Source: Candidatus Freyarchaeum deiterrae
GTDB taxonomy: Archaea > Asgardarchaeota > Jordiarchaeia > Jordiarchaeales > Jordiarchaeaceae
Direction: 5' to 3'
NCBI GenBank assembly: GCA_037305845.1
Contig: CP147778.1
Location: 448,001-512,000 of the forward strand
DNA length: 64,000 bases
Below the pieces are notes generated by a model. It ran no database searches, had not been told where the DNA came from, and worked only from the letters and a program-made list of their open reading frames with translations. Shown piece after piece: positions 8,161-41,891 of the stretch (the stretch's first letter is position 1; every line of letters starts with the position of its first letter). The translations under genes and the position numbers were made by a program.

Positions 8161-8877
8161 ATGTCTAAAAAGGAAACAATCAGCAAGAAAAATGATAACC
8201 CCAAAGATGATGCGGAGGCATGGTTTATCAAGGGCAATGCATTGCTTCGTCTCGGAAAGCGTAAACAGGCGGTAAAATGCTACGATAAGGCTATAGAGAT
8301 AAAACCCAACTATGCATTGGCATGGCTTATCAAGGGCGCAGTATTGCATGGTCTCGGAAAGCCCGATGAGGCGGTAAAATGCTACGATGAGGCGATAGAG
8401 ATAAACCCCAACCATGCAGGTGCATGGCTTAACAAGGGCAAAGCATTGGGTGGTCTTGGAAAGCGTGAAGAGGCGGTAAAATGCTACGATAAGGCTATAG
8501 AGATAAACCCCAACCATGCATCGGCATGGCTTATGAAAGGCAAAGCATTGGGTGGTCTTGGAAAGCGTGAAGAGGCGGTAAAATGCTGTGATAAAGCTGT
8601 AGAGATAAACCCCAACTATGCATCGGCATGGCTTAACAAGGGCGCAGTATTGCATGGTCTCGGAAAGCTTGATGAGGAGTTAAAATGCTACGATAAGGCT
8701 ATAGAGATAAAACCCAACTATGCATTGGCATGGCTTAACAAGGGTTTAACATTGGACGATCTTGGAAAGCGTGATGAGGCGGTAAAATGCTGTGATAAAG
8801 CTATAAAAATAAACCCCAACATTGCAAAGATATACCCCAACCTTGCAAAGAAATTGCGCAGATTATCAAGGAGATAG
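8161..8877 (+). CDS. Tetratricopeptide repeat protein (6 TPRs)
   Basis: Six 34-aa units AxAWxxKGxxLxxLGKxxEAVKCxDKAIEIxPN. Confidence 0.95.
   Translation: MSKKETISKKNDNPKDDAEAWFIKGNALLRLGKRKQAVKCYDKAIEIKPNYALAWLIKGAVLHGLGKPDEAVKCYDEAIEINPNHAGAWLNKGKALGGLGKREEAVKCYDKAIEINPNHASAWLMKGKALGGLGKREEAVKCCDKAVEINPNYASAWLNKGAVLHGLGKLDEELKCYDKAIEIKPNYALAWLNKGLTLDDLGKRDEAVKCCDKAIKINPNIAKIYPNLAKKLRRLSRR
8212..8823 (+). repeat. Six near-identical 102-bp tandem repeats encoding the TPR units
   Basis: Units start at 8212, 8314, 8416, 8518, 8620 and 8722; recurring GCGGTAAAATGCT and ATAGAGATAAAxCCCAAC blocks. Confidence 0.95.
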
Positions 8878-9067
8878 AGTCTGGAACCGATAGGGCGGGG
8901 AACATGACCCAATACTGTTCGAAAGATTGTGTCGAGATGGCTGAGGGGAGCTTGTCTAGAACCGTTTGTATACATCAACTCGGTTTTTTGGAGGATTATG
9001 AGGCGGGTTGTGTGAACATGAATCGTTTGCGAACCCCCATTTCTGGGCGCTATAAAGCATCACTGCT

Positions 9068-32365: not shown

Positions 32366-35071
32366 TTAGATTGGGAAGGCTGTTTTTATTTCTTCGTAGA
32401 GTTCTGGGAAGCTGTTCAGCCATTCTTTTCTTTCTTTTTTGAGTTGTTGGACCATTTTTTCGACTTGTTCGGTGCTGTAGTATTTTTCTAGTTTGAACTT
32501 GTCCATGTCGACGCCTTCGACTTCTTTGGGTGCGAGTGTTCCGAAGTGGGGTTCGGGTATCCATTCTATGTTGTTTCGAGCTATGCCTCTTATTATGGAG
32601 GCCATTTCTTTTATTTGGATGCGGTCCACTTTTCTTTTGACTATGCTTACGCCTTCCTCGTTTGTTTCTCTTAGTTCTCCTATTCCTCCGGTGTTTACCA
32701 GGTAGCAGTGTACTTTGTCGCCGAATTCTTTTATCATGTCGTAGAACTTGTTTCCTTCTAGTCCTTTGTTGCCTACTATGAAGGGGTTGGTTCCCACTTC
32801 TCTTACTGATTGTCCGGCTCTTTTGGGGTCGCTTCCCGAGGTTTCTATTGATTCTCCCAGCATGAATGCTGCTGCGGCTTGTTCGATTGTGAGTTTGGAT
32901 GCTACGGGTACCACGGTGTTTCTTCTGGTTATTATGAGGAGTATTAGTCCGTCGACTTCGTTTAATGGGGGTAAGTTGACTGTAGGGCTTTTGTATTTTC
33001 CGAAGTCGTCTCTCTGCATTATTCCGCGGCCGTTGCCGGTCAGTATGTCGCTTTCGAATAGTACGTTTCCTTTGTAGTCCACCATCACGTTTTCGAGTAT
33101 AGCGTCGGGTTTGGTTATGGCGTTGTAGATTAGTGGCTGTATTTCCGGGTTTACACCTTCTGTCTTTAGGTAGAATCCTCGCTCAGTGCCTATGGCTGAT
33201 CCGTCGGGTCGTAGTGCGACGAAGTCGTCCTGTACTATTTCTATGCCTTCTCCGTCTGCTTCGTTCAAGTCGTGGGTGTGGCAGCTATGGGTGGTTTTTC
33301 CGGTTGCAGTGAGTCCGAAGATTAGTGTGCTGTAGGTTTTTATTTCGCCAGTTTGGGCGTCTCTGGCTCTGATTTTTTTAGCGCCGGCGTGCAGCCCGAG
33401 CATACCCTGCTGCTTCGCAAACCACATCGCCATTCTCAGGAAGCCTTTCTTAGCTTCACCATAATAATCAGACCCAAGGACGAAGGTTACTCCTATTTCG
33501 GGGAGTACTATTATTTGCCTGTCTTTTTCCTGCCACTCTGGAATATATACTATGAATAGGTGGGGACCATTATAGTCGTCTAGGGGGTCGAAGAGGGTTT
33601 GGTTAACCATGTGAGCTAGCCTAATCATTTCTCCTCTGTGGACAGAGACTAGGAGGGTGCATTTCGGTGTGAAGTCGGGGTTGCCTCCCATAGTGCGTTC
33701 GGTGCATATGAAGGGTGCGCTTTTAATATACTGGAGTATATCTTTCATTGTTTCAGGTAGGTCTTTCATGAGTTCTTTCTGTTTGGGGCTCATTTCGTAC
33801 TGAATCACTTCGGGGCTGCCCGCGGTTATGGTTAAGCCCGCGCTCCTGTTTTTAACTGTGGAGACGAAATTGTAGTTGTTGAAGATTGTTTTAGTCCCGT
33901 ATGCTTCCGCCATCTTTCGGATTTTTTCGTGGGTAAGATGTTTGACGTTGGTTCTCTCGTGGAGATTCTCTACTTCCTGTCTTATCTCTTCCATGTTTAG
34001 CTGGGCGATAATCTCATCAATTTCGGCTTTCGCTCTCTGCTTTTCTTCCTGTAGTGGTTCGAGGTACTCTTTGGAGGTAATTATCCGCCTGACTTCTTTT
34101 TGCATATCTAAAAGAGGGTAGGCTACGTTCAGGTAGTAAACGGCTGCGAATTTGAAAATGTTTTTGTAAAAATCAATCTGGAGTTTTTCACGCTTTTCGC
34201 TACGTATAAGTAGGTAGGGGTTGAAGAAGGGTTGCGGAGAATGGGTGAGTATATCTATAGCTTCTTGTGGATTCAGGCGTTTAGCTATCCTCGCCTCCTT
34301 GCGATTATTCACAAGCAGGAAAATGAGTTTGATACGTGTGGTGTCAAGATACCTTTCATTTCCGCCTATCCACCAAGGATCAAGCATAAAGTGGTTGTCT
34401 TCTTTTTTGCTCTTCTCGTAGAGCGGTTGGAGTCGGGCATAGATTTTTATGAGGTCTCTTTTAAGATAGAATTTTCTCTCGGAGACGGATGTGGATATGC
34501 GTCCTTTCTCTCCTCCGAGCTGTTCGACGTATATTATATCGTCGGAGTGTATTCGCGCACGCTCCAGCTCTAGGAGTAGAAACGCGTTGGTGCTGACGCC
34601 TCTTCCTGTTTCTCCCATTATGGCTATTCCTTCCCCGTTGATGTCCACTAGGCTTCCCCTGATAAAATTTAAACGCTCCTGCTCCTCACTGACATCAGCC
34701 ACGATGCCCAGAGCTAGGGCTCGTACAAATTCGTAATTGTCAACATTAAAAAGTATACCAGTTTTGGTTTCAGAGTTATAGTATATTCCGGGGTTTTCAT
34801 CGTAAACTCCCGTGGCTGCGTATATCACCCCGTGGGGGCGCAGATTTCGTTCTATAGACGCGGGAAACCAGTTCTCTCTCCAAAAATCATCCAGATGGCT
34901 TTCATTAGTTCTCAGCTGTATAATGTAGCCGTTTATGTTAGCGTTCCAAACATAGAGAGAATCATATCCCAGATATCTCTCCGCCTTTTGAACCAAGTCT
35001 TCCCTTGTTTCCCGAGAGATTCCTACGTCTATATTGCCTTCCTTTTTCGGAATCTTTTCTAATTCGCCCAT
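32366..35071 (-). CDS. pckA: Phosphoenolpyruvate carboxykinase (ATP) with an extra N-terminal degenerate HPr-kinase/PEPCK-like domain
   Basis: C-terminal YYGEAKKG, LGLHAG, FGLTATGKTT, QDD, ERGFYLKT, NGR, NPF, LVNTG. N-terminal domain has GETGRGVST and IHSDD. Confidence 0.85.
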   Translation of the reverse strand: MGELEKIPKKEGNIDVGISRETREDLVQKAERYLGYDSLYVWNANINGYIIQLRTNESHLDDFWRENWFPASIERNLRPHGVIYAATGVYDENPGIYYNSETKTGILFNVDNYEFVRALALGIVADVSEEQERLNFIRGSLVDINGEGIAIMGETGRGVSTNAFLLLELERARIHSDDIIYVEQLGGEKGRISTSVSERKFYLKRDLIKIYARLQPLYEKSKKEDNHFMLDPWWIGGNERYLDTTRIKLIFLLVNNRKEARIAKRLNPQEAIDILTHSPQPFFNPYLLIRSEKREKLQIDFYKNIFKFAAVYYLNVAYPLLDMQKEVRRIITSKEYLEPLQEEKQRAKAEIDEIIAQLNMEEIRQEVENLHERTNVKHLTHEKIRKMAEAYGTKTIFNNYNFVSTVKNRSAGLTITAGSPEVIQYEMSPKQKELMKDLPETMKDILQYIKSAPFICTERTMGGNPDFTPKCTLLVSVHRGEMIRLAHMVNQTLFDPLDDYNGPHLFIVYIPEWQEKDRQIIVLPEIGVTFVLGSDYYGEAKKGFLRMAMWFAKQQGMLGLHAGAKKIRARDAQTGEIKTYSTLIFGLTATGKTTHSCHTHDLNEADGEGIEIVQDDFVALRPDGSAIGTERGFYLKTEGVNPEIQPLIYNAITKPDAILENVMVDYKGNVLFESDILTGNGRGIMQRDDFGKYKSPTVNLPPLNEVDGLILLIITRRNTVVPVASKLTIEQAAAAFMLGESIETSGSDPKRAGQSVREVGTNPFIVGNKGLEGNKFYDMIKEFGDKVHCYLVNTGGIGELRETNEEGVSIVKRKVDRIQIKEMASIIRGIARNNIEWIPEPHFGTLAPKEVEGVDMDKFKLEKYYSTEQVEKMVQQLKKERKEWLNSFPELYEEIKTAFPI

Positions 35072-35262
35072 TCTCCTTTCACCAAATTATGTCAAGTCCA
35101 ACCCGTTCGAAATCTACGAGATTTTTTTTAGAAATTAACTAGTTTACTCCTTTTTATACGTTTTCATTAACTCTATTTACTCATAGAACGCCCTTTGACA
35201 GTCTTGCATAAAAAAATGCTTTTCCCATCGATTTCATTCAATTATAAAGGCTTTTCATCCGA

Positions 35263-35278
35263 GAGAGGAAATTTATAA
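35263..35278 (+). promoter_or_regulatory. BRE-TATA promoter of the ncRNA
   Basis: Purine-rich GAGAGGAAA then TTTATAA (35272-35278), placing the start site at about 35301, the first base of the terminal stem. Confidence 0.65.
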
Positions 35279-35300
35279 CGCTTAATGCGCATTTAATACT

Positions 35301-35411
35301 AGTCCTTGCAAAAATTTATCCAGTGACCTTTTGGGGATGATGCTGGAAGAGCCGTATGACCGCTTTCGGGATGATTTGCAAAAAGGACTCCTCACATAGA
35401 GGGTTTCTTTT
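35301..35411 (+). ncRNA. BHB-flanked, circularly permuted box C/D guide RNA precursor
   Basis: AGTCCT/AGGACT stem, TGCA/TGCA central helix and two AAA bulges. Inside: D(GTGA)-hairpin-C(ATGATGC)-12-nt guide TGGAAGAGCCGT-D'(ATGA)-hairpin-C'(ATGATTT). Followed by CCTC/GAGG hairpin and T tract. Confidence 0.75.
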
Positions 35412-35481
35412 ATCAAAAGTTCTTAAGGGTACATAATGATTATTAATTAATAACTCAACCTAATCCATTTTTAAAGACCTT

Positions 35482-35934
35482 CTATTCCGGATCTTTTTTC
35501 AATTCATAAATAGTGTCACAGAAAGAATCCCCTTCCGCAAGAGTCTTAATTATATTCAATTTAATCTTATCAGTTACAGCTGCACGGAAATATTCATGAT
35601 CGATTTCCATTACTGCTTCGCATAGTTCCCTTGATGTGTTTTCTAGGCCAAAGGGACATTTTGTACCCTGGATTTGAAATTTGTCATCAGAGATTTTAAT
35701 TACTTTAACTTGGTTTGGATCAAAACTTTCGGAAAAGGCTTTCGCAACAGTTGATAATTTGTTGTTTGGCAGTTTTTTCCTAATTTTTAAACCGAGAGCT
35801 CGACCTTGTTTCGTACATATATCTTTAATAATGGGCAAAGTCTCTTTTCCCACCATTTCATAAAAGGCTTTAATTAGCATTCCCTGAGCTTCTATCGGAT
35901 TCTTCGGTAATTTTTCAGAATTTTTATCATCCAT
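35482..35934 (-). CDS. ATC-hydrolase/V4R-like small protein
   Basis: KCPFG, LCE..M.ID, TLAEGDSFCD Cys pattern. Confidence 0.65.
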   Translation of the reverse strand: MDDKNSEKLPKNPIEAQGMLIKAFYEMVGKETLPIIKDICTKQGRALGLKIRKKLPNNKLSTVAKAFSESFDPNQVKVIKISDDKFQIQGTKCPFGLENTSRELCEAVMEIDHEYFRAAVTDKIKLNIIKTLAEGDSFCDTIYELKKDPE

Positions 35935-40697: not shown

Positions 40698-41891
40698 TTA
40701 GAACCAGTCTCCGGTTGAGAGTTTTTGAGGCAAGTAGGTTTCGGTTAAGTATTCGAATCCATGACTACTTAGTGCTTGAATCTCCGCCTTCCTTTTTAAC
40801 TCTATCATAAGTTGGAGGTCCTTAGTCCACTTTACATTCTTTTGAACAAAGGGCTCCTTAAGCATCTCCTTAGCACGCTTAATGTCCTTATCCGTCATCT
40901 TAAGCCAGCACTCTTTAGGAATATTATAATCGTCAAGGTCCTTGCTCAAGACTCCTAGGAGCTTCAATTCCGGTGTTGCAAGGAAGGGTGATTCATAGCT
41001 GAGGCGTTTACTGCCCCTGAGATAAACACTGTATATGTACATACCGTAGGGATCACTATCCATCAGTGCGAAGGCTGGAATTTTGAGTGCCTTTACCATT
41101 TTTCTGAGGAAGCTTCTCGTGGCTATGTCTGCTGATCCCTTTCCAGTTATTATGATACAGGGGACTTTGTTCCACCACTTGGCTTCGCTCAGCCGAATGA
41201 GTGCTGCGTCCTTTTCAACGACGAGTATGAACTCTGCATCGCTTTCTACTATTTTGATTTGGTCTAGGAAGGGTGTAATCGACCAGCCGCCGCTTCCTAG
41301 TTTTGTGAGGTCTATGTTGTCCCCGCTATCTCTTATGATGAGTCTACCTATGGCCATTCCCTTGGCACTCGCCACTACGTGTGTGGAGTCACGAGTGGTA
41401 CTGAGAAGAGGGGGAATGTCGTCTATTATTTTATCGCTGTAGAGCTGGTCTTTGAAGAGGTTAACATCATTGTAGAAGATTTCACGCTTCGTAGCGTGAA
41501 TGTCTCTCTCAACCAGGGTGTGTATGATTTCCATTACTCTCATGGTTCTCGCAACATCTGATGAGGTGGCTAGGCTTAGAAGAGCTCTTCCGCTCTTACC
41601 CTGTCCGAGGAGCAGTAGGTCACTATCCTCATCATATATTATATTGTCTCCTCCTCTCTGCGGTATCTCTATTACTGGTGGCTTTTTTTTCTCGACCTGT
41701 GATAGGAGTTCGCGCGATAGCTCGTGAATTTTTTTGTGAACTTCTTCTGAGGGTAATTCCTCAACAATCGCCGCACCGCTTGGTAGCTTGAACTTTGATT
41801 TCCTTTTTTCATTCATTTTTTCCTTAAGTTCCCTCACTTTATCAAGAGTGAGTTCAGATTTCACTACTCTTTCAGTCTTAGCCTTTGGCAA
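40698..41891 (-). CDS. top6A: DNA topoisomerase VI subunit A (Spo11 family)
   Basis: TKREIFY catalytic Tyr, LVVEKDA, ITGKG, DSDPYG, KAEIQAL, YLPQKL. Confidence 0.96.
   Translation of the reverse strand: MPKAKTERVVKSELTLDKVRELKEKMNEKRKSKFKLPSGAAIVEELPSEEVHKKIHELSRELLSQVEKKKPPVIEIPQRGGDNIIYDEDSDLLLLGQGKSGRALLSLATSSDVARTMRVMEIIHTLVERDIHATKREIFYNDVNLFKDQLYSDKIIDDIPPLLSTTRDSTHVVASAKGMAIGRLIIRDSGDNIDLTKLGSGGWSITPFLDQIKIVESDAEFILVVEKDAALIRLSEAKWWNKVPCIIITGKGSADIATRSFLRKMVKALKIPAFALMDSDPYGMYIYSVYLRGSKRLSYESPFLATPELKLLGVLSKDLDDYNIPKECWLKMTDKDIKRAKEMLKEPFVQKNVKWTKDLQLMIELKRKAEIQALSSHGFEYLTETYLPQKLSTGDWF

What the first reader, a model, noticed from the sequence alone, without database searches (positions are those of the whole stretch)
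35263..35411. Stand-alone, BHB-processed, circularly permuted box C/D guide RNA aimed at the ribosomal peptidyl-transferase centre
Seen in sequence: BRE-TATA at 35263-35278 puts the start at about 35301. The ends form a BHB in canonical orientation, with each bulge 3' of the central helix: outer stem AGTCCT(35301-06)/AGGACT(35384-89), central TGCA(35307-10)/TGCA(35377-80), AAA bulges (35311-13, 35381-83), inner helix ATTTATCC/GGATGATT. A hairpin and T tract follow. There is no tRNA around it. Inside are two parallel kink-turn hairpins (TGA-cc..gg-GATGAT) in the order D-C-guide-D'-C', which is permuted relative to the normal C-D'-C'-D. The C-to-D' spacer is exactly 12 nt (TGGAAGAGCCGT). Established: the archaeal splicing endonuclease cuts BHB motifs and RtcB circularises the excised piece, as for the C/D RNA inside the euryarchaeal pre-tRNA-Trp intron. 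Inference: a 70-nt circle (35313-35382) is released, and ligation creates the second C'-D spacer across the junction. In the precursor, C' is sequestered in the BHB inner helix, so splicing could act as the activation switch. This would be a dedicated non-tRNA 'intron-only' gene for making a circular guide RNA.
Basis: partly seen in the sequence, partly recalled or inferred. Interest (0 to 1): 0.9.

Follow-up and report, generated by a model that had tools for sequence, protein, structure and literature searches.

The report
Permuted archaeal rRNA-methylation guide RNA gene
This archaeon encodes a small RNA that marks one site in the ribosome's catalytic centre for methylation, but its parts are written in rotated order inside a tRNA-splicing signal, so it is probably cut out and closed into a circle, a maturation route not found described for this RNA class.

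Summary
The element is real. It is a stand-alone, single-copy RNA gene, conserved with its neighbours in 4 of 5 congeners and 2 further metagenome variants. Its invariant guide pairs over 10 bp with the genome's own 23S rRNA. By the D+5 rule it points at C2510 (E. coli numbering), next to the peptidyl-transferase centre. Its sequence matches the guide of SNORD49 (human 28S Cm4456). The same guide occurs in normal C-D'-C'-D order in another family of the phylum, so the D-C-guide-D'-C' order here is a true permutation; it was found in no other genus among 400 genomes. The outer stem, the 4-bp helix and the 3' 3-nt bulge are conserved. The genome has a two-subunit EndA with the loop lysine that cleaves such motifs, plus RtcB, L7Ae, Nop5 and fibrillarin. 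Best reading: EndA excises and RtcB circularises a single-guide C/D RNA (about 0.6). Rival: it works unspliced, closed by its stem (about 0.25). There is no expression evidence. No earlier finding of this RNA turned up in the scan.

The parts
35263..35278 (+). BRE/TATA-like promoter (TTTATA 35272-35277); predicted start near 35301
   Evidence: A TTTAT(A/C) word sits 28-29 nt before the outer stem in all six full homologs although the surrounding DNA differs. No transcript data.
35301..35306 (+). 5' strand of outer stem (leader)
   Evidence: 100% paired in 5 genomes, 2 of 6 pairs with double-sided change
35307..35310 (+). 5' strand of 4-bp central helix (TGCA, palindromic)
   Evidence: Invariant; pairing probability 0.77-1.0 per pair
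35311..35313 (+). 5' AAA bulge/loop; predicted EndA cut between 35312 and 35313
   Evidence: AAA invariant in 6/6; cut position from established BHB chemistry, not shown
35314..35322 (+). Pre-D segment: 3' half of the C'-D spacer; can pair with the 5' half of the guide (TCCAG with CTGGA)
   Evidence: Length varies 7-9 nt, TCCA invariant; duplex with guide -6 to -9 kcal/mol against -20 for the rRNA target
35323..35326 (+). Box D (GTGA)
   Evidence: Invariant; followed by CC-loop-GG and box C
35327..35336 (+). Short hairpin closing the D/C kink-turn (takes the place of the normal terminal stem)
   Evidence: Stem kept, loop variable
35337..35343 (+). Box C (ATGATGC)
   Evidence: ATGAT invariant
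35344..35355 (+). D' guide, 12 nt; 35345-35354 pairs with LSU rRNA CGGCUCUUCC; G35351 (D+5) faces C2510 (E. coli numbering)
   Evidence: Invariant in 7 distinct homologs; 10-bp perfect duplex with own LSU rRNA; numbering
35356..35359 (+). Box D' (ATGA)
   Evidence: Invariant; CTGA in canonical-order relatives
35360..35370 (+). Short hairpin of the D'/C' kink-loop
   Evidence: CC/GG kept, loop variable
35371..35377 (+). Box C' (ATGATTT); its last T is also the first base of the 3' central helix
   Evidence: Invariant
35377..35380 (+). 3' strand of central helix (TGCA)
   Evidence: Invariant in 7 homologs
35381..35383 (+). 3' 3-nt purine bulge; predicted EndA cut between 35382 and 35383
   Evidence: AAA in six, AAG in L184
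35384..35389 (+). 3' strand of outer stem (trailer)
   Evidence: Covaries with 35301-06
35390..35411 (+). 3' hairpin and T tract, terminator-like
   Evidence: Only terminator-like site in 35080-35480; hairpin 85% paired across homologs
35313..35382 (+). Predicted excised and circularised guide RNA, 70 nt (67-70 in homologs)
   Evidence: Inference from cut positions; not observed

Best explanation
A stand-alone gene makes a precursor of about 105-110 nt whose ends pair into outer stem + 3-nt bulge + 4-bp helix (a relaxed BHB, or bulge-helix-loop). Two L7Ae bind the D/C and D'/C' kink motifs. This occupies U35375-U35376 and leaves a central helix of exactly 4 bp. The two-subunit EndA cuts at 35312/13 and 35382/83, RtcB joins the ends of the 70-nt piece, and the circle has the normal cyclic order C-guide-D'-C'-spacer-D. 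With Nop5 and fibrillarin it 2'-O-methylates the LSU rRNA C equivalent to E. coli C2510. It is in effect a single-guide RNA: the spacer made by ligation is a linker that can pair weakly with the guide until the target displaces it. Shown: sequence, conservation, target match, permutation relative to relatives, presence of the enzymes. Inferred: transcription, cleavage, ligation, methylation.
For: Guide invariant in 7 distinct homologs and a 10-bp match to own LSU rRNA with D+5 on a C. The same guide sits in canonical order in 5/7 genomes of family f19 and in another archaeal group, and the f19 copy scores against Rfam SNORD49 (E 0.0066, below gathering score), the guide of human 28S Cm4456 (PMC9941101). 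The outer stem varies with pairing kept, while TGCA/TGCA, the 5' AAA and the 3' 3-nt bulge stay fixed, although hairpin loops and flanks vary. A plain closing stem would not need these. EndA has a catalytic and a structural subunit; the catalytic one is closest to Aeropyrum EndA (E 8e-43) and keeps the lysine aligned to K44 of the Crenarchaea-specific loop, which PMC3241643 shows is needed to cut BHL motifs. The genome's tRNAs carry introns at non-standard positions; a tRNA-Val intron has AAA and AAT bulges and only about one outer pair by my reading. RtcB, fibrillarin, Nop5 and L7Ae-family genes are present. Precedent for the route: permuted SRP RNA of Thermoproteus (PMC4731332).
Against: No RNA data at all. 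The inner helix that normally holds intron ends together for ligation is not conserved. The spacer in the circle (13-15 nt) fits the usual 12 nt less well than the path through the unspliced precursor (10-12 nt). All permuted copies are from one genus, covariation is thin (2 pairs; 18/500 shuffles reach the score), and in the protein-free fold the central helix extends to 6 bp, which hides the 5' site.
Confidence: 0.6

Rival explanations
1. A linear, permuted guide RNA that is never spliced. The leader/trailer stem closes the ring non-covalently; the 5' strand leaving the TGCA helix (35311-35322) serves as the C'-D spacer.
For: That path is 12 nt here and in L189 (equal to the guide spacer), 11 in G002/G005 and 10 in G001/G004, closer to the usual spacing than the circle. 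The end helices are stable in every homolog. The inner helix is absent in congeners.
Against: It does not explain the fixed 3-nt purine bulge after exactly 4 bp or the fixed 5' AAA. A broad-specificity EndA in the same cell would be expected to cut this motif.
Confidence: 0.25
2. EndA cuts the motif only to trim the ends. The working RNA is the linear 70-nt piece, with two kink motifs joined by the one guide; circles are a minor by-product.
For: The second spacer has no conserved target and varies in length, so its continuity may not be needed. No inner helix holds the ends.
Against: Excised archaeal BHB introns are generally circularised by RtcB (PMC9014305; PMC12558985), and the RNP would hold the ends close (inference).
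Confidence: 0.1
3. A different RNP: an H/ACA-like pseudouridylation guide, or an rRNA chaperone that pairs with two PTC segments rather than guiding methylation.
For: D-hairpin-C on a stem is also the layout at the top of archaeal H/ACA RNAs (own knowledge); an ACA lies at 35394-96; TTATCC could pair with LSU GGAUAA near 2449.
Against: The 5' pocket strand does not match the rRNA 3' of the site. The ACA is absent in G002 and L184, and TTATCC is not conserved. Canonical-order relatives are plain C/D RNAs.
Confidence: 0.05

Closest known systems
Archaeal box C/D sRNAs (incl. circular forms of Pyrococcus/Thermococcus made by Rnl)
   Same: Two kink motifs, 12-nt guide, 10-bp duplex, D+5 rule, PTC-region target; L7Ae, Nop5 and fibrillarin present.
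   Different: Box order in the gene is D-C-D'-C' with the break inside a spacer. Ordinary sRNAs begin at C, end at D, usually lack BHB ends (PMC7994747) and are circularised at the terminal stem by Rnl (PMC9014305).
Permuted SRP RNA of Thermoproteus (PMC4731332)
   Same: Stand-alone permuted non-tRNA gene with its own TATA box, leader and trailer forming a BHB-type motif, heterotetrameric EndA, many non-standard tRNA introns.
   Different: Different RNA class and lineage. There the circle and the cleavage were shown and ligation restores a needed loop; here both are predicted and the restored part looks like a linker.
C/D RNA in the pre-tRNA-Trp intron (Haloferax, Pyrococcus sR50, Halobacterium)
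   Same: C/D guide released by EndA and circularised.
   Different: Hosted in a tRNA and targets that tRNA; from my own knowledge its boxes are in normal order. Here there is no tRNA, the order is permuted and the target is rRNA.
Pyrobaculum sR56/sR57 circular permutations (PMC6009581)
   Same: C/D genes rearranged by permutation, proposed to arise from circular RNA re-insertion.
   Different: There the D and D' guides swap places, which leaves an ordinary C-D'-C'-D gene (my reading); no processing motif is described in the passages read.
Eukaryotic SNORD49 (U49; Rfam RF00277)
   Same: Near-identical D' guide with the same unpaired U before D'; by sequence the same rRNA site (human 28S Cm4456/4426); UCC before box D able to pair with GGA of the guide.
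   Different: Linear, normal order. The window's RNA itself does not hit RF00277; only the canonical f19 relative does, below gathering score. Common ancestry versus convergence on a shared target is not resolved.

Membership tests
Archaeal box C/D sRNA | Two C/D-type motif pairs able to form kink-turn/kink-loop | tested here: met
   D GTGA/C ATGATGC and D' ATGA/C' ATGATTT, cores invariant, closing stems kept
Archaeal box C/D sRNA | About 12-nt spacer with 10 or more bp antisense to rRNA/tRNA ending at a D or D' box, D+5 paired | tested here: met
   10-bp duplex with LSU, D+5 at C2510 equivalent
Archaeal box C/D sRNA | Gene order C-D'-C'-D with a terminal stem at C/D | tested here: not met
   Order is D-C-D'-C'; no D box follows C'. 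The order is normal only in the predicted circle.
Archaeal box C/D sRNA | Second (D) guide with a target | tested here: not met
   Spacer 13-15 nt, best rRNA matches 6-8 bp at different sites in different homologs; tRNA targets not tested
Archaeal box C/D sRNA | L7Ae, Nop5 and fibrillarin encoded | tested here: met
Archaeal box C/D sRNA | Binds the proteins and guides 2'-O-methylation | not testable with these tools
   Needs reconstitution or RiboMeth-seq
Strict BHB (hBHBh') splicing substrate | Helices on both sides of two 3-nt bulges around a 4-bp helix | tested here: not met
   Inner helix imperfect here and not conserved
Relaxed BHB / BHL substrate | 4-bp helix, one 3-nt bulge stacked on an outer helix, loop on the other side | tested here: met
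   All homologs
Relaxed BHB / BHL substrate | Host EndA of the two-subunit type with the specificity-loop lysine | tested here: met
   PMC3241643
EndA/RtcB-circularised permuted RNA (Thermoproteus SRP type) | Gene permuted relative to homologs | tested here: met
   Same guide in canonical order in f19 and another archaeal group
EndA/RtcB-circularised permuted RNA (Thermoproteus SRP type) | Mature RNA is a circle with one junction at the EndA sites | not testable with these tools
   No RNA-seq access
tRNA-intron-encoded C/D RNA | Flanking tRNA exons | tested here: not met
   No tRNA in the window; leader and trailer are 12 and about 29 nt with no tRNA arms
Archaeal H/ACA sRNA | Two-strand pocket matching both sides of a target U, conserved ACA | tested here: not met
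   5' strand does not match, ACA not conserved
SNORD49 (RF00277) | Score at or above the Rfam gathering threshold | tested here: not met
   No hit for the window; f19 relative 19.9 bits against 37

The most novel reading that the evidence does not exclude
A dedicated host gene whose only product is an EndA-excised, RtcB-closed circular C/D guide that works well only after ligation. The guide would be a true orthologue of eukaryotic SNORD49, giving a splicing-dependent snoRNA-like biogenesis in an archaeal lineage probably close to eukaryotes.
Probability: 0.25. Interest if true: 0.88.

Novelty: new variant of a known kind. Interest (0 to 1): 0.7.

Why it matters
The role and the route of C/D sRNA circularisation in archaea are described as unclear (PMC7994747, PMC9014305). 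A gene whose box order is normal only after end joining, with one predicted junction, gives a clean test of whether circularity is functional. It would add a third class of EndA-matured permuted RNA after tRNA and SRP RNA. Such genes are invisible to Rfam and would be missed by finders that expect C first and D last, so guide inventories may be incomplete. The match to the SNORD49 site suggests that a PTC-adjacent methylation, and perhaps its guide, is older than eukaryotes. Limits: one small gene in one genus, no expression data, and the likely function (one 2'-O-methyl) is ordinary.

Tried and rejected
Rfam at gathering score: nothing in the window; at E up to 10 only chance-level hits. Covariance model R1 over 151 phylum genomes: only genus g1; no paralog in the own genome. 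A guide-agnostic double kink-loop pattern (fixed 15-base middle, so other spacings are missed) over 400 phylum genomes: the same five loci only. A scan of genome contigs with a 15-mer was too loose and returned chance bacterial hits. The G007 (same order) guide-like match lies inside a long open frame and lacks proper boxes; three hits in family f7 also lack the architecture and are near the number expected by chance. G003 lacks the RNA but also lacks the neighbouring PEPCK gene, so an assembly gap is likely. Second guide aimed at LSU 2446-2451: rejected, not conserved. Split or permuted tRNA: rejected, no tRNA arms. H/ACA reading: rejected. MAFFT of re-permuted circles with canonical relatives aligned C, guide and D' but not the second half, so homology of the second spacer rests only on a short CCAG-then-TGA resemblance and is weak. 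Literature searches found no description of a D-C-D'-C' gene; the library is incomplete, the term C/D could not be searched directly, and two key papers were not held. From memory, Berkemer et al. 2015 reported BHB-like elements near many archaeal C/D RNAs; I could not check it.

Full report
Setting. The window lies in a single-contig archaeal genome of 3,576,204 bases (archaeal LSU rRNA hit). The element is on the + strand in a 410-base gap between a 901-aa PEPCK-like ORF (32366-35071, minus, divergent) and a 150-aa ORF (35482-35934, minus, convergent). ARAGORN finds no tRNA in the window and Rfam nothing at gathering score.

Observation. The pattern of two TGA-stem-loop-RTGAT units 9-16 nt apart occurs once in the genome. 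Relaxed BHB-like motifs are common on their own (1337), but only this locus convincingly encloses such a pair. BLAST finds the element in four of five congeners (E 1e-24 to 1e-31), and a metagenome pattern scan adds L189 and L184, plus L180, which repeats G005. PEPCK lies upstream at about the same distance in all copies whose contig reaches that far, and the HflX-like gene downstream in most. The fifth congener lacks PEPCK too, so its absence is probably an assembly gap. A TATA-like word lies 28-29 nt before the outer stem in all six full copies although the flanks differ, and a hairpin with a T tract follows.

What is conserved. Invariant: TGCA-AAA at the 5' end, TCCAGTGA, ATGAT, the whole guide with D' and CC, GGGATGATTTGCA and a 3-nt purine bulge, AAA or AAG in L184. 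The outer stem changes sequence but stays fully paired, with double-sided changes at two of six pairs; with five related sequences this is suggestive, not strong. Hairpin loops and the stretch before D vary. The shared motif is therefore outer helix, 3' bulge, 4-bp helix and a 5' loop, a relaxed BHL. When the box cores are held unpaired, as if bound by L7Ae, the 4-bp helix and outer stem still form in all six sequences (pair probabilities 0.78-0.99 for the central helix). In the C'/D' motif U35375 and U35376 face D', so the motif ends just where the 4-bp helix begins. Kink-loop formation is thus compatible with the splice motif and may sharpen it, which argues against the proposed sequestration switch.

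Target. Bases 35345-35354 pair perfectly with CGGCUCUUCC in the genome's single LSU rRNA (-20 kcal/mol). D+5 (G35351) faces the C that maps to E. coli C2510. The annotated E. coli 23S runs 3 nt short of standard numbering, which I fixed on the A-loop U2552 (standard numbering from own knowledge). Helices 90-93 are a known archaeal methylation hotspot (PMC7994747). The second spacer, which exists only across the predicted junction, is 13-15 nt and has no shared rRNA target. Its 3' part can pair with the 5' half of the guide at -6 to -9 kcal/mol, far weaker than the target duplex.

Permutation. The same guide, between a C box and a CTGA D' box, is present in 5 of 7 genomes of family f19 of the same phylum and in a further group of metagenome contigs. 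There it is followed by C', a spacer and D, the normal order. One f19 copy scores against Rfam SNORD49 (19.9 bits, E 0.0066, gathering score 37) through a near-identical guide and a similar pre-D end; SNORD49A/B guide human 28S Cm4456 (Cm4426) (PMC9941101). That this is the same site follows from the guide identity and from my recollection of the numbering. The D-C-guide-D'-C' order appeared in no genome outside genus g1 among 400 searched. The own genome has a few canonical-order candidates, so this gene is the exception. Because TGCA is a palindrome, the two ends are also a direct repeat (TTGCAAAA(A)), and the predicted circle keeps one copy. A tandem duplication or re-insertion of a circular copy, broken at a palindromic spot in the dispensable spacer, would create both the permutation and the splice motif in one step. 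This origin is inference.

Machinery. Two EndA genes are present. One has the Tyr, His and Lys motifs and is closest to Aeropyrum pernix EndA (E 8e-43), including the Crenarchaea-specific loop with a lysine aligned to K44. The other lacks the His. PMC3241643 shows that this loop and lysine give cleavage of BHL motifs. The genome's tRNAs have introns in the D arm and variable region, as expected for such an enzyme. RtcB, fibrillarin, Nop5 and L7Ae-family genes are present.

Mechanism and rivals. Most likely (0.6): the precursor binds L7Ae, EndA cuts at 35312/13 and 35382/83, RtcB closes the 70-nt piece, and the circular single-guide RNP methylates C2510. The main rival (0.25) is an unspliced linear RNA closed by its stem. 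It gains from the 10-12-nt path from C' to D in the precursor, against 13-15 nt in the circle, but leaves the fixed bulge unexplained. Trimming without ligation (0.1) and a non-methylation role (0.05) are less likely. That the element is a permuted C/D-type guide for this site is about 0.9 under the first three readings together.

Comparison with what is known. It works like an archaeal C/D sRNA but fails the gene-order feature, so I file it as a permuted variant. Its predicted maturation copies the permuted SRP RNA of Thermoproteus (PMC4731332) and the tRNA-Trp intron guide, but it is neither. Ordinary C/D sRNA ends usually lack BHB motifs and are circularised by Rnl. Permuted Pyrobaculum sRNAs swap their two guides (PMC6009581), which leaves the box order normal. 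I found no description of a D-C-D'-C' gene, within the limits of the library. Earlier notes of this scan had nothing on this RNA.

Verdict. Real, conserved and unusual; a new variant that combines two known principles. Interest 0.7.

Noticed in passing
L169:1496-1552 (also L170-L173): Canonical-order C/D sRNA in family f19 whose D' guide and pre-D end resemble eukaryotic SNORD49 (Rfam E 0.0066); a candidate archaeal counterpart of a human snoRNA, lying just upstream of an ORF.
   Followed up: partly
L179, L181, L183, L185, L186, L188, L190-L192 (around the guide match): Another group of metagenome contigs carries the same guide in canonical order with a GGGCC terminal stem and an unusual D box (GAGA).
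   Followed up: partly
window 32366-35071 (-): 901-aa PEPCK-like protein with about 330 extra N-terminal residues. Earlier scan notes call this a degenerate HPrK/PEPCK-like domain. The RNA gene's promoter lies in the same intergenic region, divergent from it.
   Followed up: no
G000:C1 about 1370990-1371065 (+) and about 1244680-1244745 (-): Two canonical-order C/D sRNA candidates with 10-nt rRNA matches (LSU near position 2593 of the Rfam hit; SSU). Few others were found, so the guide set of this genome looks small.
   Followed up: partly
G000:C1 1.06-1.86 Mb (e.g. 1482430-1482545, 1625999-1626100, 1647848-1648027, 1698331-1698424): Many tRNA genes carry one or several introns at non-standard positions; ARAGORN finds only 17 genes and misnames several.
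   Followed up: partly
L193:1147-1782 and L194:1474-2070: Two-subunit splicing endonuclease whose catalytic subunit has the 'Crenarchaea-specific' loop with the K44-equivalent lysine.
   Followed up: yes
window 40698-41891 (-): ORF resembling DNA topoisomerase VI subunit A (Spo11-like), judged by eye from its motifs.
   Followed up: no
L037 (G005:C130, near 8789-8921): Weak model hit at a contig end consisting of a duplicated stretch of about 45 nt that starts with TTGCAAAAA and includes a small hairpin; probably a repeat or assembly artefact.
   Followed up: no
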